A stretch of 64,000 nucleotides of DNA. Source: Vermamoeba vermiformis. Taxonomy: Eukaryota. The position numbers and the translations under genes are program-made. Every line of letters begins with the position of its first letter. Within the stretch, counting starts at the first letter, position 1. The stretch spans positions 124,001-188,000 of the forward strand of contig JBEWZL010000278.1 in assembly GCA_045837725.1 (NCBI GenBank), in the 5' to 3' direction. The notes under the pieces are model-generated. The model was given only the letters and a program-made list of their open reading frames with translations, did not search any database and had not been told where the DNA came from. Below, in pieces: positions 3,206 to 57,400 of this stretch.

Positions 3206-5247
3206 ATGAAACAAAGCGTTAATTTGAATCAAGCTCTCAACAGAAGAAAGTCTGATGCTAAGCATATCGCTTTAACTACCCTCAAGGTAAACTATCATCA
3301 ATGCTTCTCACTCATCCGAAATTGAATTTAATAATTAATTAATATTTTTAGGACAAATGCGCTGAAGCTATTGCCCTGAATCCTCTTCGCCTCGCTCAAC
3401 AGACACTCCCAATCGAGGTTTTAGAGCTTGTTTATCATAAACTCGCACAATCGTGCCGTCTGGACAACTCAACTATTGGATTCTTCGGACGTTTAGAAAA
3501 GATCGACCTCCGAAACAATAACATCTGCGACCATGGTATCAGAACACTTGCTCTAGCTTCTAAAGGCTACAATGTAAGTAACTTCTCTTCACAGTTTTGG
3601 CGCCACGGATCCTTTCCGGTTGCAGCCGGCCAGAAATTGGAATTATTCCGCTTTTGCTTATACTTCCTTTTTTAGCTGAGGTACTTCAACGCAAGCCGCC
3701 TGCGTATAACAGACGATACCGCTTACGCCTTGGCCACATGCTGCCCTAACCTCGAGGTGCTCGATCTTAGCTACTGTCCTCAGATTACGGATGTAACTCT
3801 CCGTTTGCTCGGCACTTATTGCACACAACTCCGACAATTGAACATCTCCGGCTGCGGTCAAATAACCGACGAAGGCCTGGCTCGTCTCTCATCCCTTCCT
3901 AACTTGCAACGTTTGGCCTTCTCTAACTGCCAAGGTCTGGATGGCCTCAAACTTCATCACTTGCGTCGTCTCCCTTTGACCGAGCTTGACATCTCCGCGA
4001 ACCAATTCCCAGTCAAGTCGTTCATTAAAATCCCAAAGTACTTCCCCAAGCTCACCAACCTCAACTTGGCCAACTGCGTGCAAGTCACCGACACCCTCCT
4101 CGAGCTCATCATCACCAAGTGCACCGTGCTCAAGCACCTCAACTTGGAAAGCATTCCCCTCTTGACCAACAAGACGCTCCACTTGCTGTGCTTCCACTCG
4201 TGCCTCATCGAATCCGTCAATCTTCAAGGCAACAACCAATTGGACCTCAACATCATCGCTTCGTTGGTCAAGAAGGGCTTGCACTTGATTGGTGGCCCCG
4301 TCGAGCTTACCATCCTTCGCAACCGCTCTCACTTGGAGCCCATCGTCCTCAGAGCCATCGACAAGTTTACTCCAATGAGTGTCATTCGCGAGCGCGCCCT
4401 TGCTCAACTCCGCGAAGAAAAGGCCTCAGTTGAAGATAACTGGCAACTCGATGACTTGTTGTTCCAAAAGGTCATCTACCGCAAGAACGGAACCAAGCGC
4501 CCTTCAGCCTTCGTCTCCGAGAAGGAGTACGCTAGCGTCTTGGCTGCTGTCCTGGGTGACAAGAAGAACCATTTGTACCTCCAAACCACCAAATTACCCG
4601 AAGAATACACCGCCGCACAACAGAACATCGTCTTGACTATGCGCAGATGGAGCAGCGAGGAAAAACGCCCGATCGACATCGGCGACCTCTCTGTCAATCC
4701 AAACATTACTTTGCGTGAGTTCAAGCAGATGATCCACGAGCGATACATGCCCACCGTTGTTGTCGAGAAGATGCTCCTCGTCGAAGAAGAGACTCCTCTC
4801 CACGTCAACATTTTGCTGAACAACACCATCACTTTGAAGAACTACGGCCTTGTCTCTGGCGATGCCTTGCACGTTGAAGAAATCACCGAGCAACACTACA
4901 CTCCCGAAGGCGCTGTTGGCAACTCTTCGACCGCGAAGTACTTGTCAAAGCAAAAGACTCAGTTCTTGATCCAAGAGACCGAAGAGTCGTTCACTCGCCG
5001 CAAGTGCCGTGCCTTGGCCTCGAACACCAAGACGATCCCAAGAGAAGCGATCAATCTCGAAGTCAAACTCTCTGGCTGGGCCAAGTTCGAAGACCTTCAA
5101 CGCTTCATTTCAAACGTGACTGGCGTTCCCCCTAAAGCTCAAAGACTTTCGACTCGCGTTCACCCTCAAGTTAACCTTGAAGGCCCTCAGAAGTCGATCG
5201 TTGAAGTCGTGTCCGGTAACACCTGGATCATGATGGAAGTTATGTAA
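3206..5247 (+). CDS. BC-box/Cul2-box-like + cysteine-containing LRR protein with C-terminal ubiquitin-like regions (3 exons)
   Basis: N-terminal TLKDKCAEAI..LPIEVLELV. LRRs such as LEVLDLSYCPQITD and LRQLNISGCGQITDEGL. C-terminal NITLREFKQMI..TLKNYGLVSGDALHVEE and DLQRFISNVTGVPPKAQRL look ubiquitin-like. Confidence 0.75.
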
Positions 5248-6815: not shown

Positions 6816-8481
6816 TTAAACGTTCTGAACATTGAAAATTTCTTCTTCAGACAATTCACGACCGTACTTGTCAACACGAGGGATCCATGACTTGTTAATA
6901 GCATCAGCAGTCTCTTGGTTGAAAGAAGTCTTCATGTGTTGCTTGATCTTCTTGATGGCCTTAGCGGGGTTCAATCCCTTAGGGCAAGTTCGCGAGCAGT
7001 TCAAAATAGTGTGGCACTTGTAAACCTTCATTTGAGCATCCTTGAATTGTTGGATACGTTCCTATACATCAAAAAAAGTTTGTTAGATTCGAATCTGAAC
7101 GCGAGTCACGCGATTGATTTTGTCAATTTGTATTGCTTATTGAATCAGCACTATAATTGTCTACAAAGATTCTTCAGATCGGACAATAGAAAAACATCAT
7201 TTCAGCGAAGCTATTAGCTTAACTAAGCAAAGTTCGAAATTGTTTTTGACGCACGTAACGAGACGTCTTAAGTGGATCAACTATGAACGGAATTTACCTT
7301 AGTCTTGGTGTCACGAGAGTCGGCAATCCATCTGAAAGCTTGGAGCAAGACGGCAGGACCCAAGTAGTCGTGGTCACCTCCCCACCAGTAGCTGGGGCAA
7401 GAGGCAGAGCAGCAAGCGCACAAAATGCACTCGTAAAGACCGTCGAGTTGCTTACGCTTAGCAGGTGATTGAAGGACTTCCTTGTTCTCACGACCAGGTT
7501 CAATACGAGGCTCGAGCCAAGGCTTGATGGATTTGACTTGTTGGTAGAAGTTGCTAAGATCGGGAACCAAGTCTTTAATAATAGGCATGTGGGGCAAGGG
7601 GAAGATCCTAATGGCAACACAATATTAGTCCTGACGTCATATATACCTAGCAGATGTTCTGCCGAGCAATAGAATAAAATTATTGCAAAATTCGCGTATC
7701 AATTTGGCGGATGTTACAACACGTACTTGATATTGTTGTTTGAGTCAACGGAATCAGAAATCTTCTTGAGGCAAGCCAATGTGTTGGTACCAGAAATGTT
7801 CATGGAGCAGCTACCGCAAATACCCTGAGAAATGTAACGGTGAGCCAGATGCGATCGGACAGGATCATGAATAATTGCTAGTGAAAATCTGGTGTTCGTA
7901 TAATTGTATAGAACAAAGTATCACGAGCATAAATCACATATATTGCATATTCATATCATTATAATAATTTGCCGTAATGAGTTCCAGATGGTATCGTTAC
8001 CTCACGACAAGATCTTCTGAAGGTAAGGGTGGGGTCCATTTCGTTCTTAATCTTAATCAATGCATCGAGAATCATAGGGCCGCATTCGGCAGTATTAACT
8101 TTGTACACTTGCATGTATGGTTTAGGATTGGTGGATTCTCTGTTAACTCGATAAATTTCGAAGGTCACAGTTCCGCTGACATGCTTCTCAACTTCTTCCT
8201 TGGGTCTCATATCGAAGAATTCTGTTAATTAATAATTATTAGCACCTGTAATAATTAATCCAAAAAAAAAATAATTGTTGGATTAAATAATTACTGCTTA
8301 CAAGCAGCGCTAATATAACACAATAAATTAAAATATTCATTACTCGATACATACGACCGAACAACATATTACGGGCTTGGGTCTTGTTAGTAGTCATCTT
8401 GCCCAAGACAGTCGTCTTCGAAGGTCCAGCCTTCGATCCCAAAAGATTTTGGGCAGCAGAAACGCCAACTCGCTTTAACAT
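6816..8481 (-). CDS. SDHB: Succinate dehydrogenase iron-sulfur subunit, mitochondrial
   Basis: [73 protein letters not shown]. Basic N-terminal presequence [14 protein letters not shown]. Confidence 0.97.
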
Positions 8482-8788
8482 GGTGAGCGATGTGTTGATT
8501 ATATTACAAAAGTGATAAGACAAAACGGGCCACGGAGAACAAAGGAAGTTTATAATTTTCATAAATTATTTGAGAGTTGCGCGACCAAAAACAAACGGTA
8601 ACTCACTTTCAATTTCACCTCGGGTACCTCAGTTATCGTGTCTATAGTAATTTCGGATTGAGGCAATAAAATTGTAAGTAGATCCTCGTTCGCTTGATCG
8701 CTCGATGTTTTCTTGAATCTTCGCTACACCCCAAATTCTTCGATATATAATCGTGCAAAAATTCATATGAAATTAATACGTGCAGTAG

Positions 8789-9899
8789 ATGAACTTAGAA
8801 CAACTGGGTGCGCTTCTGCCAGAAGATACAAAGGATCTTGCTTGCTGGCCTTTCGCAAAACGCTATTTTTCGTGCCAAGGTACGCTCACGTGCATTTATA
8901 CATTAGTGAATATATCTATATAATTTTTGGACCTTTGCTCTTCCTACGATCCGCAATCTAGAAAATCTTTTATTCGCCCGCGCTTTTGCCTTCCACGATC
9001 CAACGCCCCAGGCAGGCTCCTGTTGTGTTATGGAGCATAGAGTACCATGCGTGGCACTTAACCCTCCAAACAGCGCACGTCCGTACTTTTCTAAGCCCTT
9101 TTTTGCAACGTTCAACCAATCCCACAAAATTTTCGCCCCGGATCAAGCACAAAAAAGCAAAAACAACACCTTGATAGTTCATACTTACCTGGACAGTAGA
9201 GATGTGATCAAGAAGGCATCTCTAGGTCGGTCGTTGCGCTCCTCTTGCACTCGGAGTGCGACATCGGTTGGGCTTCACCGTATGGTGTTGTCCCTGTCAC
9301 AATTTTTGTTAGTGCGGATGTTGCGCTCGCGCACGTCTGCGCCTCCTAAATTACAAAAAAATGAACTAAAAGGGGTTGTGTGGGTTTGGGTTGTTGCATA
9401 AAGGGAATACAGAGAACGTGCTGCTGAGCGAAGGGTTAAAATTTGTAACGGTCATAAGGCAAATCCGCGGGTTTATCTTTTTGGTGTTTTGTAATGCTCT
9501 TGGACTAAATTTGTTTTGCTGCGTAGGTCCTAAAGGGTATATACAAGGCTTCTACCGCGACGGCAAGTTCAGCGGATGCGAGCGAGAGTCTATAAATTAT
9601 TTTGCTTGTATGAAAGCCAGATGGACCTCCAACTCGGATGATCAGCGCAAGGTAAGGCTGCGTTTATTGTTCGTAGGGCACAAGGGGACTAAACAGCAAT
9701 TCTTTAGCTCGTAATCGCCGAGGCGCGCAACAAAATAGAGGCAATGTCCAAATCCGACAACCCTGTTTGGAAAACGCGAAAAGAACCTCCAGCCAACTTT
9801 CACTACTATCAAGTCATATCGCCTGCCGAGGAGGAACGAATATTCAAAGAAGCCATGGGCGAGGCTATTAAATCCGTACCAGATGCTGTCTCTAAATAG
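8789..9899 (+). CDS. EMI1/C22orf39 (DUF3128)-like twin-CX9C small protein; exons 8789-8879, 9527-9651, 9708-9899
   Basis: CWPFAKRYFSC-QGPKGYIQGFYRDGKFSGCERESINYFAC..NPVWKTRKEPPANF fits the family pattern C..C..YYxxG..C..C..VWxxR..PP. Splice junctions are in frame. Confidence 0.75.
9120..9127 (+). promoter_or_regulatory. snRNA upstream promoter element (DUSE/USE-like)
   Basis: TCCCACAA at -61 to -54 from the U1 5' end matches the Dictyostelium DUSE consensus WCCCAYAA in sequence and spacing, and resembles the plant USE RTCCCACATCG. Confidence 0.7.
9181..9344 (+). ncRNA. U1: U1 spliceosomal snRNA (~164 nt)
   Basis: Starts ATACTTACCTGG. SL-I AGAGATGT/GCATCTCT with loop GATCAAGAAG (U1-70K site). 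SL-II loop CTTGCACTC (U1A site). SL-III present; closing helix GACAG/CTGTC. Sm site AATTTTTG. SL-IV GTGCGGATGT/ACGTCTGCGC. Confidence 0.97.
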
Positions 9900-10032: not shown

Positions 10033-10723
10033 ATGAAAAGAGCAACGAAGTTTTTCTTACTCGGAGCCTTATTAGCAGTCAGCTGGGTATCAATTGTATT
10101 CAACTACGCTCCGATCAAGCTCGATCCTAAAATATACGATATTGTCAAAGTGGTAAGTAAAGTCTTGGCACTATTTTGCCACAAATATCTTTGCAAATGA
10201 TTGGGTATATTATGGAGAAATATGCATTACTTATGACACAAAGGGAATAATTAATTTTCAAAATATTTCCAATATTGTTAAAAAATCCGAATAATATTAT
10301 TTAATCGAAATTATTGCTTTCTATATAGAGGGTATACGATTTTTTGCAAAGAAATGGCTACTTATATTTATTAATTTTGACGTCACCAAAAAAATTAGAG
10401 ATCTCTTGTCGACGTCGCAAAAATACTCTTATTTTATTTTGTTTATCTTCTTATAGTACATTATCTTAAACTTCCCTTATTTTACGTAGTTTCCTCTTTG
10501 GTTGTTGGTTACTTACGGCGCCTATTCGCTATTTGTAATTTCTTACCGACTGATGACCTTCCCCGAATGCCCAGCCGAAAAAGATTTGTTAGTTAAGGTC
10601 AGTATAACTAATAGTTGTAGTCGCTGCTCATAGTATAACTAAACCTTCCATTTACAGGAGATCGAAGCTGCCAAAGCAGATCTAGCGAAGAAGGGATTGG
10701 TTGTTTCAAGTAAAAAAGAGTAA
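10033..10723 (+). CDS. DPM3: Dolichol-phosphate mannosyltransferase subunit 3 (3 exons)
   Basis: Two TM segments, then FPLWLLVTYGAYSLFVISYRLMTFPECPAEKDLLVKEIEAAKADLAKKG. Confidence 0.9.
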
Positions 10724-11177
10724 TGTGTTATAGTTATCGAGGTAATAAATGCAAATTCCTCAATATTACCAAAATTTCTCGATCCGTTAGAACGATTAAT
10801 TCTTGTCGATCAGATGATTGGCTATTCTTTGCCGCCAAGCTTTAAAGCGATCCTATTCCTTATACAATGGAGTTCGAACCATTTGGCATAAAATATCATT
10901 TAGAAGTGCAAACGGTAGTTTCTGATCCGCGATTGACACTTGTTTTAACCACAGAAGATTTTTTGTTTATTTTTTTATTCAACAATCGACTCTCGGCCAC
11001 AAGCGCGAAGAAAAGAAGAGAGAAAACGAGATGTGATAAGTAAGAACTATGCCGATGAAAGAGGATAACAACGTTACAGTATACGTTGACTATTACGATG
11101 GCGAATCTCATTTGGAAGAAAAATGATACTCAAACGACCAGCCAGCGCAACTAAGAGAAGAGAGCCTAGTCCCATAG

Positions 11178-12240: not shown

Positions 12241-14499
12241 TTACTCTTCTTCGCCGTACGCAGGTTCCTCACCCATCTCAATCTCGTACTATGAAAATTG
12301 GTGACGTTAGTTAACGCTGCACAATTAAATTGAAACAATAAAAAGCACTTACGGGGTCATCTATAATAGGAACTAGGGCCACACATCGTCCTAATTGCAC
12401 GTATTGCTTTAATTGTTCGACGGATGTGACAGCGTAGACGTCTTTATCGCACTTGTTGCAATGTCGTCTATCACCGTCAGTTGCATCTAATTGATAATAC
12501 GATAGTGGACATTTGAAACCAAATTCGCAATTCTCTGAAAACAAATCCAACCGTCAGTACAAATAAAATTAACATAGCGGATCTGAATATTACGCACCAA
12601 TAGCAGGCTCCGTAGGTCGCTCTCTGAACCTTTCATATCGGACTTTGAAGAATTTAGCCCAACTTTGCATCTTCAAGTTTGGATTCTGATCGGGGAACAG
12701 ATGCATGTAAAGTTTGTGCCAAATAGCGTTGTTATCGGCCACGAGCTGATGGAACTTCTTGTTGACCAACGATACGCACAATAATGTAAAGGCAGCGGAG
12801 TGTGAAGCATGCTAAGAAAAAAACAAGTCAGTACAAATGCTGGATGTTGCTCGATCCTGAAGCTTACATCAAGAATAATTCGCAGAGTTTCAGTAGGCAA
12901 GTTGCTAATATAGCAGTTCTTGTCAGCTTTAGGCCACTCGTTAATATCCCAGACAAATTCCGAACTGCCAAAGTTGTATCGAACGCGGATGTCGCTTCCA
13001 ACAAATCCAAGCGTTGGGAAGCAATCCATTCCACCTGCAACCCTCTTCGTTATGTACCCGACGAACTTGCCATTTACAGTATAGAACACCTTGCGTTGGT
13101 TGAACGAGTCCATGGCAAGACCACATCCAACAACGTCGTTCACTTTGAACGCACCTCGCTCCCCGTCGCTCGTGAAGTTGAAGCCAACAGTGCCGTTGTT
13201 GAAGTAGCCGAACGAGTTCTGCATGGAGCCCACGAGTTGACTGGACTCAAATCTTTGGTCGCTGAAACCAATCGAAAGCGTTTCGTCCGCTATGAAAAAC
13301 GCGTATGAGTATAAGTTCATAATACACCAAATAGGGTAATAATTGTATGGTGTATAGTAGGCGGCACCTACGTTTTAGTGATAGTATAGTGACTTCATAA
13401 TAAGGCAGCACAGTCGCTAGACGGGGGAAGAAAGAGTCTGCTTGAAGTGACTCGGCCTTTGGCGCTGTGATGGTGAGTATGTTGCCTTCAAGAATTGCTT
13501 TTGTTTTTTTGTTGAATTTGAAGAACGTTGGTATTTTATTCTCGGCCTAAAAATTATAAGCAGTTAAAAACCGGATGCGGATGGCGCGTACCGGAAATTT
13601 CTTTTCGTTACTTACGAATGGATTATGAACGAAAGGAATTCCTTTGGTACCAAAGTTCACTTGGATATTTTCTTGCGGGCTGTGCAAGCCAACCATTGGA
13701 TACAACTTGTCGGGAAAAGCTTGCATTTTGTACGTCGGCAATGTTTTCTTTGTACCATCGGGAAATACGAAGAATATTGATTCTAAATATACATTAGCTC
13801 ATATCGCAAAATTTACAAGCAATTTGGGCCAAATTTATCGAACGGATGTAGCTTCAATTTTAAAGACTTGGCGAGATACTTACGCGCTTCAAAATCAACA
13901 CCACATCCTACTGTAGCACCCTTTGCAGCCCACGCAGGTCCAAACTTTTTAATCACTTCAGCGTCATCGCAGAAAGCAATACCATCGTCGCCGTGAAATC
14001 CGAACGTTCCTGTGAATGTAATCTTAGCAATTATTGTGGACGACTATATAGAACGTCTTGTACGTACCTTTAGTCCATCCAGGTTGCTTGTCGGCTGCAT
14101 CTTTTTCGTTCTTTGATAAACCAATTGCGATCGTGCCTCGAAGACCCCGCGAAATAACGGTCACCTCTAATAAATTGGAAAATGGTCAACAATAATACAC
14201 TAGTAATAGGAGAGTTGTAGATCAATAAGGTAATTGAATTGAATTAAAATTTAATTTTTTTTTGAGATTTACCTACCGAAATAAAATCGCTTGTCGTTTA
14301 CTGCTTCCCAAGCAGCAGTTGATTTAAAACAAACAACTTCAGGATTGCACTCTTTATCAATGCTAACAATGGCATTGGCCATGTAGCCAATGGTACAGAG
14401 CTTGCTGGGCTGAAGATCGTCAAACTGGATGAAATTCTTGCCGAACGGCTTTTTGAAGCATACTATCGGCTTTTTATTATTCTTTCCGAATGAAAACAT
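12241..14499 (-). CDS. Tandem SPRY domains + F-box + C-terminal Cys-rich domain
   Basis: SPRY1: RFYFEV..IAIGL..QPGW..FGFHGDDG..LYPMVGL..VNFG. SPRY2: YYEV..LVGSMQNSFGY..DVVGCG..FYTVNG..FPTLG..YNFG. F-box ISNLPTETLRIILD..SLVNKKFHQLVADNNAIW. C-terminal NCEFGFKCP..RHCNKCDKDVY..GRCVA. Confidence 0.85.
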
Positions 14500-23820: not shown

Positions 23821-26800
23821 ATGCAGCGCTATAAAAGAGAATCATTTGTACTCGCCTTAATTTTGGCTTGTCTATTGATCAATACTGTTAAATCCGCGAT
23901 TCCTGGCGGTAGGTATGGCGCTGCGTCTTGGTTCTACGATAATAAACTATGGATGTTTGGCGGAAAGGGATGGGACGAGACATCAACGTCGGGTAAGTGA
24001 ATCAGATTGGCGGGATCAATTGATTTATTATTTCTTTTAAATTTAACGATTATTTTAATATTTAGCCGGTCTGTTGAGTGATATGTGGAGTTACGATCCA
24101 AATACAGGTGCTTGGACGTTCGTTGCTGGCAATAAAGCCATAAATATGATGGGCCTTGCAGGAAGCCTGGGATCGTACAGCCCTAACAATAATCCTGGTG
24201 GTATCCTTGAGCAATGTTCATGGTTCGATGAACCAACAAAGCAGTTTTGGATATTTGGCGGCCAAGTCGCTATCACGCCTTCAGTCGGTAAGCCAAAAAA
24301 AACTTTAAATATATTTTATTTTATAAAATAACAATTATTGCAGCTTATACTAATCAGGTGTGGACGTTTGATCCGAATACTACTCAATGGGCTCAAATGT
24401 TCAGCGGGACATCCGTTGGCTCTTTCGGTCCAACTGTCTTTCAGCCAGGACCACGAGCGCTACACAAATGCGTATCAATGGGCCAATCAGATGCTTATAT
24501 AAGCGGTGGCTATGGACACGACACAACATTAAATCTTGGTAAGTTACAACTGCGAAAAAATATCACCGTAAATCTCTTTGACACGTGTCAACTTGAGTTT
24601 TTGCATAGTGAGCGATCCATATCTGCCGTTCAACCTCAAATCGAAGCTCTTTATTACACGTGTCATACTCCACGGGATTAACATCCGTATATTTCTTTTG
24701 ACACTTTGACACTTAAGGTTCAACCTTTTGTTTTTATTTTAAGCGGAAACTTGATTGAAATTTCACAATAACGAAGGTTCCTTAACCTAATATCAACGTT
24801 CGTCATTGTAACATTGCTCATTTCAGGTTACTTGAATGATTTGTGGTACTTCAACGCGAGTGGATGGACTTTCATATCAGGCAACGACACACGTGACTGT
24901 GCCAGCACTTTGAGCGCATTTGACGCGCCCTCAGCGAGCGAATATCCTGCTTGCGGTACACGCATTGCAGGCTGGGCCACAAGCCCTGCTGACCTTTACT
25001 TTGTCACGGGTTTAGCGTACAGTGGCTACCTCAACGACGTGTACCAATACACGGATGGACAGCCCAGTACTTGGACCTTGTTGCACCCTGGTGATTTGAC
25101 CAAACGTGTGGACTCTGCCTCGACGAGTAGCAATGGCAAGGCATGGCTGTTTGGAGGCACTGGCAAGACCTTCAATGACACTGTTGGTAAGAGTTAACGA
25201 CCTTTAATTAAGTCTCAGATATCGCGTTGAATGTGCTAATATCTGCTATCGAACGTTATGGTGGGCAGTTTAGCGTGGAAGATAATTGGTATTGTTACGC
25301 GTGTCACGTGTGGCTGAAATTTTGACAGGTAGCCTAGCGGATCTGCTCGAGTGGAATGGCACGGCTTGGAACTACTTGGCGGGCTCTCAAACGGCTAATA
25401 CTGCTGGGTCTTATCCCGCACAGCCTGGCACTGGAAACTCGTCCACTTACCCTGGTAGCAGATCCCAGGCAACTATATGGCTGGACGGTGCGGGTGATTT
25501 GTGGCTGTTTGGCGGCTTTGGCTATGGTTCATTGTCAACAACAGCTGGCTCTTTGAATGACCTGTGGAAGTACACGATGAACACAGGTGTTTGGACTTGG
25601 ATCGGTGGCAGCAACAACATCAATCAGAACGGCAATTACACTGCCATACCTATCAGTACCCCCGCAAATAATCCTCCTGTCAACACGCCTATCGAACCAC
25701 CAGTCACCGCGCCTGTCAATCCCCCGCAAGACTTGCCTCCAACTAGTTCTCCCGTGACACCTCCGACCGATGTTCCATCTTCAAATGAAGTCAATGTACC
25801 TACGTCAGTGCTGCCAAGAGATGCTCAGATTGCTATCGGCGTCGTAGTACCCGGCGTTGCCGTTGGAGCTGGACTGTTGGTGCTGCTTCTGTTGTTGAAG
25901 AAACGCAAGAAACAAAAGGCAAACAAGTCCTCTACAACGACTTTAGTGCCGCTCGGTGACTTCAAACCTGACCCTCGCTACGGAGCCGTTGACACCACGG
26001 CCAATGCTTACTCACACATGGAGGGTTTAGCCGTGGGCTCTTACGTAGACTTGCCTGCAAATGAGAACAACAGACTTATTCCTTATGCCTCCGTCACTTT
26101 GGAGAAAGAAATTGGCGAAGGCTCGTTTGGCAAAGGTACGTACTCGAGACCGTGAATAGACTGAGGTTAATAGAATTGATTTATTAGTGTTCTTGGGCAA
26201 ACTTCGAACGACCAAAGTAGCCATCAAAGTTGCAAATACAAAGCTTCCTCAAGACGAGTTCATTCAGTGAAGCCAACTTCCAACTCGCCATTCCTCCACA
26301 CCCGAACATTGTGCAGCTATTAGGTATCTCTATTGATGGTCCACAGCCCTTAGTCATTCTCGAGTACTGCAACGAAGGCAGTCTCGATAAAATTCTGTTC
26401 AAGACGGAAAAATTAAGATCGCCAGCGGAACAAATCGCTCTTGCAGAAGCTATTGCCACGAGGCATCGATCATTTGCATCAAAACAACATTGTGCACAGA
26501 GATCTTGCCGTCAGAAATATTTTGCTGCATCACGGTGAACCGAAAATATCCGATTTTGGCATGTCACGAAAACTCAAAGAAGTGTCACAAGTTGGAAAAA
26601 CAGCGACTACTATTGGTCCATTGAGATGGATGGCGCCTGAAGCACTCGGAAAACAGTTGTACAGTACCAAGTCAGATGTGTGGTCGTTTGGCATGATCTT
26701 GTTCGAGATTGTTGCCCATGAAGAGCCACACGAACACGAAGACTTAATTAGCGTTGCTATTGGCATTCGAGATGAAGGATTTGCGCCTGCTATTCCTGAC

Positions 26801-29092: not shown

Positions 29093-30828
29093 TTAATCGA
29101 CTCTAGAGCTTACGTACGACAAAAAGTGTTCTAAATAAGGCAATTTCTCTTTGACTTCTTGAACGAAAGATTTGGACCAATCAACTGGCGGCGAGAAATA
29201 GAACTGTTGTAACCTTGTTAGGGCCGTTATAGTGTACCCCTTGCATTGGTGCATTAAATTGTTCAATAATGTCAAATGTTGTAGTGCTGTAAAATTAAAC
29301 AATTTCGTGCCATCTTTCAAGTTGTACAGGGTCAATTCGCGCAATGATGTGAGCGTGCTAACGCATCGCCAGAAGTAGTTCGTGTTATCTACACTAATAG
29401 ATAGCGAGGTCACTGAAGGCAAGTTGAAATTAGCCACATGATTGCCTTGGGAACTAAAGTGCAGCTCTTGCAATCGGGTCATGTTCGCGGAATAAAATTT
29501 TGTTGGAGATTTCCAAGAAAGTGAAGTCAACTTTGTTAATGCATAAATACTCGATACTTGGACATCCTCTGTTATTTTGGCAAGCTGATGGAGCTTCTGA
29601 AGGTTTGTGAGTTTTGAGAGATCTCTGAATCCGGTGACCTTCGTGAAGGAGTTCAATATCAATGCCGTTAGTCGCGTAAGTGACATTATAGGCTCCATAT
29701 CGACAACATCGTCATAATACTCGTATTTAATTGATAAGTACTCGAGACTGTGTAGTTGCGCCAAGGACCAAACTTGAGTCGGGTACAAACACTTGATTGA
29801 TAACTCCTTTAATCCTATCAATGGACTAAGATGTTGATTTGCACCAACTTGTAAAGTGACATTAATATATAGCTTTTCTAGCGCTGTTAATCTCGATGCA
29901 TCATCGACTTGATTTACGCATAGACTTTTCAAAGTGGCTGGATTTCTTAATGTTCTTATTTTGAAATGAGACAGGACTGTCAAACTTGTAACATTTGATG
30001 GTATATCAATTACGCCATTATACTGCACTTCTAAGCTTTCTAAGTTGGTGTACTTTGCCAAACTGACAGGCGGACCAGATGAGGCATAACTCTTCAATGC
30101 TTTAAGGGATGGATAGTGTTCTAAGGCATTCGTTATATTGCAATCTGCCTCTAGTTTCGTTAAATTTGTATTAATTGAAAGAGGAACGAAAGGATCTCCG
30201 CGAGTTTGTAACAACACTAGTTGTGGCATCAGTGTTAAATAAATGCTTTGTAGATTGTCTGTTACTAACTTCGTGACATTAGGGATGTGCTTTATATCGT
30301 TGATATCTAATTGGGCTATTGTTAATTGCTGCAAGTTCGTCGCTGGATTCGGAAAAAATGTTTTGAGCGGTGCCACCACAGCTTTCGAGGGTTGTGTTGT
30401 ATGGAGTGGATATAACTCTAATGAGGTGATATTTGTTAAGATAAATATTGTCTTGAGGTCGTCTGGCACTAGTTTGTAGGTTTTGTCGAATCTAAGTCCG
30501 ATCAGCTCTGGATGTCGGCTGAATCGTGTTACAACAGCATTGAGTTCGTTGGATAATATGCACCCTATTCTAAAATATGTCTTATTGACCACTTCACACC
30601 AAACAGAGTTGACCAAACGTAGATTTGTTTTTTGATCTTCCGACAAAAATGACAGGATCAATTCTACGATCTCCGGAGGAATATAGAATTCTGTTATCTA
30701 AATTTTTGTTATTTTTTTACGATTTATTTTATTAAATTTCGTATACCAACCTCGCTACTGCTGGTTGCCTGATCCAATCTGGGCTTCTTTGCCGGGTGCG
30801 TCTTTAAGTAACCCCCGCTTCTCTTCAT
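29093..30828 (-). CDS. F-box + leucine-rich repeat protein
   Basis: IPPEIVELILSFL..NLRLVNSVWCEVV. Repeats LTNLQKL, LTALEKL, LTSLRELTL. Confidence 0.8.
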
Positions 30829-54452: not shown

Positions 54453-57400
54453 ATGGGTAAGTGCTGTTCTCTTAGCTCCAGAAGTGATTTTCTCGATCTT
54501 CAACCAACCTTAATTACCAGCTAAAATATTGAAAAAAATAACTGAATAGACCAATATAATTATGTTATGAAATCAACGGATATTAACAAAAAGGATCTTA
54601 CAGATCCACTGAAATTTTCATAACAAAATATTCTCGTCATAATTTCGAAAAAAATAATTGCATTAAAGAAATATGTAATCTTGAATTATATTAATTGGTC
54701 TACGGAACGAGATCTAATTCAGTTAATGTTTTTCAGCTTCGGTCGTGTACGTATGGGGCGAGAATGCTTCAGCTCAATTAGGCCTTGGCGATTATAAACG
54801 CCATTCAGTGCCCGAGACCTCGTCTGTATTAGCGGAAATAGGGCCTATAGTTGATATTGCTTGCGCTGAAAAATTTGCCATAGCCATCAATAGTACGTGA
54901 CCTCTATACAGCTTAGTATAATAGCCAAATATTTATTATAATATTTTTACAGCTCAGGGCGACGCCTATATTTGGGGCTCGGTGCCGACACCGACGGCGA
55001 ATTTTCTGTATTGGACATTAGGAACGGATAACATCACTGAAAGACCATTGAAAATTGAACTTGTAAGTCAATCGTTAATTAGAAATTCAAATATTAATTT
55101 TAATTACAGCAAGGTTATACTTGGAAATCAGCCGCAGCTTGCCATAGAAATATTGGTTTGGTTACAAGTACGCGCTAAAAAAATTATCACCGCGTGCCAT
55201 CAACTTTTGAAAGAGTTTTCTATGCTATAATAATGAGACTTCGATTAATGATTGGTGATATTTATAGAGAAAGGCAAGGTCGTTATGCTCGGTGATTCTT
55301 CTATGGGCCAGTTAGGCATCGGTCGAAGATCCGCTCCTAACAACCCTGCCGAAGTCGCCAATCTTACGAACATCGAAAAGCTCGCAGTTGGATATTTTCA
55401 TTGCCTCGCTCTTGATAGTAAGTCAAACATTACTAACTACGTAGGTATTTAATATTTACATTATTGACAGACGAAGGCAATGTGTACAGTTGGGGAGCGG
55501 GATCCGGTGGAAAACTTGGTACTGGCGAGACTTCTGACGCCTTGTTTCCTGTGAAAATTGCTGGACTGAAAAGCGTTAAAGACATTGTCGCAGGCAAAAC
55601 TGTGTCAGCGGCACTGACCACTGATGGTGAAGTGTACACGTGGGGCAACGACAAGTCTGGTGCATTAGGATTGAAAGGAGTCGTCGAGACGTTCACACCA
55701 CAAAAAGTAGAGATAACCGAGAAGATTGCTTCGTTGTCTTTGTACGAGAGTCATATTGGTGCTGTCTCTGAGACTGGAAAGCTGTTCATGTGGGGTCGTG
55801 GCACGGAAGGTACGAGGCCTCACTATTTGACCTGTTTGTTCTAACAATGTGATTATAATTATAGGACAACTTGGTTGGGGAAAAATTGATAACACCGCTA
55901 TTCCTGTGTTGCCTACAATCAAAACAGATGATCCGTTCGTGCGTGTCTCGTGCGCGATGTATCATACTATCGCAACGACTCAGAGCAACAAAATTTACGC
56001 GTTTGGCCAAGGCTTGTCCGGTCAATTAGGAGTCTCTGCCCAGTACGTACTAATAGATCTATTGTTATTATTGAGTGCTAAGACATTGTTTTGTTGTAGG
56101 TGGAAGACTGAGCTCATCCCTAGATCGTTGGAGATTAAACCAAAAGAGGTCTTGTTCTTACGATCTGGTGGCAAGTTTAACTTCTTAGGGACAACAGGTA
56201 CGTATCAATATATAAGACCTAATTCCTTATTTGCTCAATGTTACGTTAGAAATTGCTGAGGAAATCGAAGGAGAGAAAAAAGATGCTGACTCAGAGTGGG
56301 AAGTGGAAAAAATCTTAAATAAGAGATATGGAGACAACGTTAGTACCAAGTTCATATTAATTGTACTAGAGAGCTGATGATCTATTTATAGGGCCGAGTA
56401 CAATACTTAGTTAAGTGGAAGGATTACCCGAGCGAACAAAACAGCTGGGAAGGCAAAGAGAATTTGGCGGGCTGCAGAGATATGATTAAAGAATATGAAA
56501 AGGCATTGGAAGATGCTCAGAATGATAATAGAGTACGTAGTCACTATCATCAAGTATTATTTTATTAATTTTATTTCTCGCAGAAAAAAATTCGTCAAGA
56601 GGTCAAAGCGGCTTCTCAAACGAAAATACCAAGGTATATGCCATCAGTCGATGACTTGGATAGCGAGAGCAGCGGGTCTTCCGAAAGCGAAGAGAGTGGC
56701 GAGAGAGAGCGGTGAAGAGTCGGGATCTGAAAAGTCAAGCGAAGAGAAACAAAAAGAACTGCTGAAGAAGAAAAATGCCGAAAAGAAGAAAGAAGAGCCG
56801 AAAAAGTCGAAAGAAGCGAGTATTAATAATGTTAATATAAATAACACAGAACGAACGGAAGACACGAAGAAAAGCAACGGATCAAGCTCTTCCGCGAAGC
56901 CGACAAAAGAAAAGGAAAATGGATCCCAAAAATCAAAGAAAGAGTCTGCAGTTACCCAGACTTCGTCCAGTAAAAAGAAAACAGAGGATAAGTCGAAGCC
57001 AGAAATCAAAAAGAAGTACGAGGATCTGATCTCGAAACAAAAGGCAAGACTTCAACCGAGACAATATAAAGAACGAAAAAGGCCATCCGATGATTCAGAT
57101 GTACCAAGCTCTGACGCTTCAGAGGATTCTTCGAGATCAGGATCCGAAAGCGCATCCGGTTCTGACGATGAATCTGAAGAGGTTCTATCGCAAAAGAAGC
57201 TGAAGCCTCTTCCCAAAACGAAAGTTTGAGGAGAATACTCGAACAGCGAAGCACGACTCCGTAGAAATGGAGGACTCAGCTGAATCCGGTCCAGTCGAGC
57301 CCGAGAAAGAAGATAAGAAAATTGTTAAGAAGAAGGATAAATCATCACCACCACCAAAAGAAGAGAAGACTAGCGTAGTAGATGATATGGACATCGACCT

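What the first reader, a model, noticed from the sequence alone, without database searches (positions are those of the whole stretch)
8880..9526. Complete U1 snRNA gene nested sense inside the first intron of a protein-coding gene
Seen: intron 1 of the EMI1/C22orf39-like gene is 647 nt, far above the usual 50-150 nt here. It contains an intact U1 (5' arm, 70K and U1A loops, Sm site, SL-IV) on the same strand, with a DUSE-like TCCCACAA at -61. Inference: a Pol II snRNA unit fires from inside another Pol II gene. The host pre-mRNA would also carry U1A/U1-70K binding loops and a 5'SS-complementary arm (ACUUACCU) able to pair in cis with the next donor (AG|GUAAG at 9650-9656). Host splicing could therefore sense free U1 proteins, or U1 could be released from the intron.
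Basis: partly seen in the sequence, partly recalled or inferred. Interest (0 to 1): 0.75.

Follow-up and report, generated by a model that had tools for sequence, protein, structure and literature searches.

The report
U1 snRNA gene inside a short intron
A complete, strongly conserved U1 spliceosomal RNA gene with its own promoter-like elements sits, in the same direction, inside a 647-base intron of a small protein-coding gene; the layout is real and shared with related species, but it is an unusual placement, not a new kind of biology.

Summary
Rfam places a full-length U1 snRNA at 9181-9341 (+), 78.4 bits against a cut-off of 69.5.

The 8879/9527 splice junction is shown three ways:
- a 403-nt spliced transcript contig
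- spliced raw RNA reads of a relative
- a transcript-derived orthologous protein collinear with the three coding exons

So the U1 lies in an intron, not between genes. The host is a PANTS/C22orf39-like gene (PF11326). A 115-nt 5'UTR intron comes first, so this is the first coding intron, not intron 1.

An orthologous metagenome contig (L001) has the same nesting. Synonymous sites are saturated (dS 1.17). Even so, U1 is 158/161 identical, and two upstream blocks (-69..-48, which holds TCCCACAA, and -33..-12) are each 20/22 identical. Other intron DNA is 31-51% identical.

Best reading: an independently transcribed snRNA gene living in a host intron. Nothing supports release of U1 from the intron or host splicing that senses U1 proteins.

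Intronic snRNA genes are already reported in human, zebrafish and Drosophila. This is a new member of a known kind, of modest interest.

The parts
8628..8673 (+). Host gene 5'UTR exon (its 5' limit is not known; this is where the transcript contig starts)
   Evidence: X1 contig piece 8628-8673 is joined to 8789. Equivalent joints are seen in X8 and X23.
8674..8788 (+). 5'UTR intron, 115 nt, GT..AG; its 3' part is unusually conserved
   Evidence: Joint 8673->8789 in X1. 8722-8788 is 83.6% identical to L001, against 31-51% for other intron DNA.
8789..8879 (+). Host coding exon 1 (ATG at 8789; 30 codons plus 1 base)
   Evidence: Translation. 29/30 identical to residues 1-30 of the transcript-derived orthologue P0004.
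8880..9526 (+). Host intron that carries the U1 gene, 647 nt, GTACGC..TAG, phase 1
   Evidence: Joint 'skips 647, GT..AG' in the X1 contig and in 2+3 reads of X21/X23, plus 5+4 reads with exon-2 sequence after 8881.
9041..9133 (+). Conserved upstream region of U1 (-140..-48); 9112-9133 is the proximal-element-like block holding TCCCACAA (9120-9127)
   Evidence: 9041-9111 is 78.1% and 9112-9133 is 20/22 identical to L001. 9115-9133 shows no listed difference in the X8 contig, which differs at 9112 and lacks 9114.
9148..9169 (+). Conserved A-rich block at -33..-12, where a TATA-like element would sit
   Evidence: 20/22 identical to L001, whereas the spacer 9134-9147 is 6/14 identical.
9181..9346 (+). 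U1 snRNA gene (Rfam match 9181-9341; the likely mature 3' end is near 9346)
   Evidence: RF00003 at 78.4 bits. 158/161 identical to L001. Three X8 contigs all stop matching at 9346.
9342..9395 (+). 3' flank: a semi-conserved stretch followed by a G-rich GGGGTTG-type box about 30 nt after the U1 end; candidate 3'-end or termination signal
   Evidence: 9342-9366 is 17/25 identical to L001. A GGGGTT motif is present downstream in the window, in L001 and in organism M read ends (table 7). Read by eye.
9527..9651 (+). Host coding exon 2 (core of the PANTS-like domain)
   Evidence: PF11326, E 6e-4, profile positions 18-53. 93% identical to P0004.
9652..9707 (+). Host intron, 56 nt, GT..AG
   Evidence: Joint 'skips 56' in the X1 contig.
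9708..9899 (+). Host coding exon 3, ending with the TAG stop
   Evidence: 54/63 identical to P0004 residues 73-135. The spliced CDS is 408 nt with a single terminal stop.

Best explanation
This is a functional U1 spliceosomal snRNA gene with its own snRNA-type promoter. It lies in the sense direction inside the first coding intron of a small PANTS/C22orf39/EMI1-like gene. U1 is most likely transcribed from its own start at 9181. It would be driven by a proximal element around -69..-48 (holding TCCCACAA) and an A-rich block around -30, and it would end near 9346. The host gene is transcribed through it, and the whole 647-nt intron, U1 included, is spliced out and discarded. The two units share DNA but are otherwise independent.

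Shown: the U1 identity, the intron borders, the host family, and conservation of the nesting and of the upstream blocks.
Inferred: the start site, the polymerase, and the independence of the two transcripts.
For: (1) Full-length U1 above the Rfam cut-off, with a canonical fold.

(2) The intron is removed exactly at 8879/9527. This is seen in a 403-nt spliced contig (X1, 5 differing letters), in 5 junction reads, and in 9 reads continuing into exon 2 in X21/X23. The transcript-derived orthologue P0004 (135 aa) is collinear with exon 1, a junction Gly and exons 2-3.

(3) The orthologous contig L001 has the same order: exon 1, U1, exon 2, exon 3, then the DPM3-like gene.

(4) At dS 1.17 and dN 0.08, identities are: U1 98.1%; -69..-48 at 90.9%; -33..-12 at 90.9%; -140..-70 at 78.1%. 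The remaining intron segments, other than the semi-conserved 3' flank (68%), are 31-51% identical, and the -47..-34 spacer is 43%. Selection therefore acts on upstream elements that an intron-processed RNA would not need.

(5) In the relative's RNA (X21/X23), 4+5 reads run from the U1 3' part into its downstream flank. No group of 3 or more reads extends upstream of the U1 5' end, and none shows retention at the exon 1 donor (table 7). This fits transcripts that begin at U1 and are 3'-extended. Numbers are small, and 2 loose-end rows were not shown.

(6) From established knowledge: the U1 5' end must be capped and single-stranded to work, which an intron-excised RNA would lack.
Against: No 5'-end mapping was possible, so a start at 9181 is inferred. 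No RNA data were found from this exact genome: X1 is about 99% alike but holds only the mRNA, and X8, X21 and X23 are relatives. Expression of this very copy is therefore not shown.

The whole genome is not held, so the number of other U1 copies, and their promoters, could not be compared. The motif CCAATCCCACAAA with up to 2 mismatches is not enriched in the window: 3 hits against 1.57 expected, and 18 of 100 shuffles reach 3.

One X8 contig runs unspliced from exon 1 into U1. Host read-through RNA, or DNA in that library, therefore does carry U1.

Persistence of the nesting in one or two relatives does not by itself show selection for the nesting.
Confidence: 0.75

Rival explanations
1. Cross-talk. 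Besides being a U1 gene, the nested unit regulates its host. This could be by transcriptional interference, by premature 3'-end formation at the U1 terminator about 740 nt from the host start, or by the U1 sequence in the pre-mRNA recruiting U1 proteins or pairing with a donor in cis.
For: Sense orientation places the U1 3'-end signals and the U1 protein-binding loops in the host pre-mRNA. The arrangement persists at dS 1.17. An X8 contig links unspliced exon 1 to U1 and stops at the U1 3' end. Exon 1 (90.1%) and the 5'UTR intron (83.6%) are more conserved than exons 2-3 (78-81%).
Against: The X8 contig most likely stops at 9346 because two other short contigs branch there, which says nothing about termination, and that library may contain DNA. 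Spliced host mRNA is readily found in three data sets. The host protein has no link to splicing. Complementarity of the U1 arm to a donor is generic. No data here compare host expression with and without the U1.
Confidence: 0.12
2. U1 has no promoter of its own and is released from the excised host intron, as intron-encoded snoRNAs are.
For: It is sense-oriented within an intron, like the SNORD78-like snoRNA in the neighbouring SDHB-like gene's intron. No TSS data were available.
Against: There are conserved upstream blocks at promoter-typical distances, separated by a non-conserved spacer. No RNA reads extend upstream of U1 in X21/X23, while 9 extend downstream.
Confidence: 0.06
3. The copy is an inactive U1 pseudogene or a recent insertion that happens to lie in an intron.
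For: Copy number in the genome is unknown. snRNA pseudogenes are common in many eukaryotes (recalled).
Against: 158/161 identity with the orthologous copy at dS 1.17, and conserved flanking elements. The orthologous position in L001 rules out a recent insertion. In X8 a U1 contig carrying this locus's upstream flank has mean depth 1254 in an RNA library.
Confidence: 0.05

Closest known systems
Intron-nested snRNA genes of animals (human RNU4ATAC in CLASP1 intron 2; intronic snRNAs of zebrafish and Drosophila)
   Same: A spliceosomal snRNA gene lies wholly inside an intron of a protein-coding gene. [quoted passage not shown]
   Different: RNU4ATAC is on the strand opposite to CLASP1 and in a large gene. 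Here the U1 is sense-oriented and fills about half, promoter included, of a 647-nt intron in a compact gene, 301 nt from the donor and 185 nt from the acceptor. Orientation and conservation of the zebrafish and fly cases were not read.
Dictyostelid ncRNA/snRNA promoters with the DUSE element
   Same: A short C-rich element about 60 nt upstream of the RNA start. [quoted passage not shown] Here TCCCACAA is at -61..-54 and is conserved in L001.
   Different: It matches 7 of 8 positions of the printed pattern (C where A/T is given). The organism was not identified and need not be a dictyostelid (40.6% G+C). The plant snRNA upstream element also contains TCCCACA (recalled, not checked). No second snRNA gene was available to show that the motif is shared.
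Intron-encoded snoRNAs
   Same: A small structured RNA in the sense direction inside a host intron. An example lies 2 kb away: a SNORD78-like C/D RNA in an intron of the SDHB-like gene.
   Different: snoRNAs are cut from the spliced intron and need no promoter. This U1 has conserved promoter-like blocks and needs a capped 5' end.

Membership tests
U1 spliceosomal snRNA (Rfam RF00003) | Covariance-model score at or above the curated gathering score, over the full length | tested here: met
   78.4 bits against 69.5, model 1-166, E 1e-17. The orthologue in L001 scores 73.0 bits.
U1 spliceosomal snRNA (Rfam RF00003) | 5' arm complementary to 5' splice sites, stem-loop 1 and 2 loops, Sm site, terminal stem-loop | tested here: met
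   alignment: AUACUUACCUGG; stem-loop 1 loop equal to the consensus; stem-loop 2 loop CUUGCAC (first base differs from the consensus A); AAUUUUUG; stem-loop 4.
U1 spliceosomal snRNA (Rfam RF00003) | Expressed as a stable RNA of about 165 nt | tested here: inconclusive
   Relatives only. An X8 contig with this locus's flank has mean depth 1254, and X21/X23 reads lie on 9163-9366. No RNA data from this genome covered the U1.
Independently transcribed (Pol II-type) snRNA gene | Conserved proximal promoter element about 50-70 nt upstream of +1 | tested here: met
   9112-9133 (-69..-48) is 20/22 identical to L001, while the spacer is 6/14 and neutral intron is 31-51%.
Independently transcribed (Pol II-type) snRNA gene | Capped transcription start at the first base of the RNA | not testable with these tools
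   The single lay of reads listed no place where many molecules begin. The libraries were ordinary cDNA of a relative.
Independently transcribed (Pol II-type) snRNA gene | 3'-end formation signal just downstream | tested here: inconclusive
   9342-9366 is 17/25 conserved. A GGGGTT-type box is seen in three species by eye. No match to the animal or plant 3' box as recalled.
Intron-processed small RNA (snoRNA-like biogenesis) | No promoter of its own; both flanks are equally represented in precursor RNA | tested here: not met
   Conserved upstream blocks. 9 reads extend 3' of U1, and no listed group extends 5'.
PANTS / C22orf39 / EMI1-like protein (Pfam PF11326) | Pfam match at or above the gathering score | tested here: met
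   The orthologue P0004 (122/135 identical to the window's exons, plus the junction Gly) scores 49.3 bits against 27, residues 17-96. Window exon 2 alone scores 20.5 bits, E 6e-4. The window's own spliced protein was not scanned whole. The name EMI1 for this family is recalled.
Host/nested gene pair | Nested gene lies wholly between a used donor and a used acceptor of the host | tested here: met
   The 8879/9527 junction appears in the X1 contig and in X21/X23 reads. U1 at 9181-9346 lies inside it.
DUSE-type promoter element | [AT]CCCA[AT]AA about 60-63 nt upstream of the RNA start | tested here: inconclusive
   The position is met (-61). The sequence matches 7/8 of the pattern printed in PMC3188802. 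The taxon is unknown.

The most novel reading that the evidence does not exclude
The sense-nested U1 unit is kept in this intron because it gates the host gene. Host-promoter transcripts that reach the U1 3'-end signal about 740 nt from their start would be cut or terminated there, or the intronic U1 sequence would assemble U1 proteins in cis. Output of the small mitochondrial-type PANTS/EMI1-like protein would then track the activity of the snRNA 3'-processing or U1 snRNP assembly machinery.
Probability: 0.1. Interest if true: 0.6.

Novelty: new member of a known kind. Interest (0 to 1): 0.3.

Why it matters
The locus is a clean, transcript-verified case of two Pol II-type units sharing DNA in a compact genome. 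An essential snRNA gene, promoter included, occupies about half of a 647-nt intron and has stayed there while neutral sites turned over completely.

It gives a small natural test bed for how snRNA promoters and 3'-end signals coexist with a host transcript that reads through them. It also provides phylogenetic footprints of an snRNA promoter in a poorly sampled eukaryotic lineage. For annotation, it is a warning that an over-long intron in such genomes may hide an RNA gene.

It does not by itself reveal a new mechanism.

Tried and rejected
Whole-genome U1 copy count: no genome is held for this window, so other U1 copies and their promoters could not be compared.

Earlier notes of this scan: nothing for this genome or this sequence. 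One unrelated Naegleria U1 note turned up.

Host homologues:
- The exhaustive representative search with exon 2 (41 aa) gave 1 hit, an 873-aa protein with 11 matched stretches (P0003), judged uninformative.
- Word-based searches gave 1 of 1 candidates and 3 of 6 candidates. The family is thinly sampled near this organism.

Taxon:
- The SDHB exon search (7936 of 8000 candidates scored) gave a 92% hit from a metagenome. The named hits among the 120 listed were at 60-76% identity and were animals, mostly insects. No lineage could be assigned.
- The Atlas look-up of an LRR protein gave only generic LRR clusters at 0.80-0.82.

Sequencing runs: 20 rows in 14 studies hold 9-13% of the words. Only X1 and X8 were laid, so nothing is concluded about habitat or the other rows.

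Motif enrichment of the proximal element in the window: not above chance. One of the 3 hits is an inverted look-alike at 9377-9389.

Weak Rfam matches were rejected as chance. Twister-P1 at 10971-11026 scores 26.9 bits against 67.2. Histone 3' stem-loop at 54588-54632 scores 24.5 against 34 and has no histone ORF beside it.

Literature searches found no paper on a sense-nested U1 in a short intron coupled to its host. That is only a statement about those three searches.

The end of X8 contig 3 at 9346 was considered as evidence for host attenuation. It was rejected because two other contigs branch at the same place.

Full report
**What is there**

Rfam's U1 model (RF00003) matches window 9181-9341 on the + strand over its whole length (1-166). 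The score is 78.4 bits against a gathering score of 69.5, E 1e-17.

The alignment shows the defining parts:
- the 5' arm AUACUUACCUGG
- a stem-loop 1 loop identical to the consensus
- a stem-loop 2 loop CUUGCAC (consensus AUUGCAC)
- the Sm site AAUUUUUG
- the terminal stem-loop

On its own the 161-nt stretch folds into a four-way junction plus a 3' hairpin (-64.8 kcal/mol). It is the only U1 match in the 64 kb, even at E<=0.5. TCCCACAA lies at 9120-9127, which is -61..-54.

**The host gene and the intron**

On the same strand there are three coding exons:
- exon 1: an ATG at 8789 opens a 91-nt exon ending at 8879
- exon 2: 9527-9651
- exon 3: 9708-9899

The spliced CDS is 408 nt with a single terminal stop. 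The introns are 647 nt (8880-9526) and 56 nt (9652-9707), both GT..AG.

Exon 2 alone matches Pfam PF11326 (PANTS-like) at E 6e-4, profile positions 18-53 of 80.

A 135-aa protein from a transcriptome of a relative (P0004) is collinear with the three exons. The matches are 29/30 for exon 1, a Gly at the split codon, 93% over exon 2 and 54/63 for exon 3. P0004 scores 49.3 bits on PF11326 (cut-off 27) over residues 17-96. The U1-bearing intron therefore interrupts the conserved domain in phase 1.

**Transcript evidence for the junction**

- Run X1: one 403-nt contig lies on 8628-8673 | 8789-8877 | 9525-9649 | 9706-9848 with 5 differing letters. It is a spliced mRNA lacking a 115-nt 5'UTR intron, the 647-nt intron and the 56-nt intron.
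- Runs X21 and X23: these are raw RNA reads of a relative, mostly 90-95% alike. 2 and 3 reads show the same 'skips 647, GT..AG' joint.
- A further 5 and 4 reads continue after 8881 with letters that, read in frame, give the exon-2 residues of P0004.

One correction follows. Because of the 5'UTR intron, this is the second intron of the transcript.

**Conservation of the nesting**

A pattern from the U1 5' part found one metagenome contig, L001 (1768 nt). On its minus strand L001 carries the same order: exon 1, an intron with a 73-bit U1, exon 2, a short intron, exon 3, then the same downstream DPM3-like gene. An RNA-library contig of X8 also joins exon 1, unspliced, to the U1 upstream region and to U1 itself.

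Between the window and L001 the host CDS has dN 0.08 and dS 1.17, so neutral sites are saturated.

| Segment | Identity to L001 |
|---|---|
| U1 | 158/161 (98.1%) |
| -140..-70 | 78.1% |
| -69..-48 (holds TCCCACAA) | 20/22 |
| spacer -47..-34 | 6/14 |
| -33..-12 (A-rich) | 20/22 |
| 25 nt after U1 | 17/25 |
| rest of the intron and intron 2 | 31-51% |

This is the footprint of a gene with its own promoter, not of a passenger sequence.

**How it most likely works**

U1 is most likely transcribed from its own promoter starting at 9181 and ends near 9346. Three X8 contigs stop matching at 9346. The host polymerase reads through, and the intron is removed whole.

The relative's RNA points the same way, though the numbers are small:
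- 4+5 reads run from the U1 3' part into the downstream flank.
- No listed group of reads extends upstream of the U1 5' end.
- All 9 loose ends at the exon 1 donor are spliced (2 loose-end rows were not shown).

Release of U1 from the excised intron is unlikely. It would not need the conserved upstream blocks. From established knowledge, it would also leave an uncapped, unprotected 5' arm.

Regulatory cross-talk (interference, premature 3'-end formation on host transcripts, cis-bound U1 proteins) is not excluded, but no result here supports it. The complementarity between the U1 arm and the next donor holds for any donor, and the host protein has no link to splicing.

**What was not possible**

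- No genome is held, so copy number and promoter comparison with other snRNA genes are open.
- No RNA from this exact genome covered the U1.
- No start site could be mapped.
- The organism could not be named. Close relatives are only unnamed metagenome or transcriptome proteins.

**Comparison with what is known**

Intronic snRNA genes are on record:
- Human RNU4ATAC lies in CLASP1 intron 2, on the opposite strand (PMC12703291, passages).
- A Drosophila study restricts an analysis to 'non-intronic' Pol II snRNAs (bioRxiv 10.1101/2025.03.05.641556, methods passage).

[quoted passage not shown] It matches at 7 of 8 positions. That is a resemblance, not a membership.

The sense orientation, the tight fit in a 647-nt intron and the persistence at saturated dS are the unusual points.

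**Verdict**

This is a new member of a known kind, with interest about 0.3.

Noticed in passing
window 7141-7205 (-): A SNORD78-like C/D box snoRNA (45.5 bits, cut-off 38) lies in the sense direction inside an intron of about 235 nt in the neighbouring SDHB-like gene on the minus strand. Both genes flanking the shared 5' region therefore carry a small RNA gene in an intron.
   Followed up: partly
window 8722-8788 and 8789-8879: The 3' part of the host's 5'UTR intron (83.6%) and exon 1 (90.1%) are more conserved with L001 than exons 2-3 (78-81%) and far more than other introns (31-51%). No Rfam match was found there. This may be a regulatory element of the host, of the divergent SDHB-like gene, or a distal element of U1.
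   Followed up: no
window 10153-10489, motif at 10373-10390: The downstream DPM3-like gene (PF08285; exon 2 E 1e-10) has a 337-nt first intron. It holds an 18-nt block containing the palindrome TGACGTCA that is identical in L001, while the rest of the intron is diverged.
   Followed up: partly
window 9372-9395; L001 (-) about 1100-1075: A G-rich GGGGTT(G)-type box sits about 30 nt after the U1 3' end in the window, in L001 and in the read ends of organism M. Its reverse complement gives a weak look-alike of the upstream CCCAC motif (9377-9389, 2 mismatches, at chance level).
   Followed up: partly
window 3676-5244 (+), 29096-30697 (-), 25286-26152 (+), 12676-13374 (-): Long open frames encode LRR, F-box/LRR, Kelch-like and SPRY domain proteins. 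No close named relative of any window protein was found, so the lineage seems poorly sampled.
   Followed up: partly
window 9658 onward (intron 2), run X21: Four reads of the relative continue unspliced into intron 2, while no unspliced reads were listed at the donor of the U1-bearing intron.
   Followed up: no
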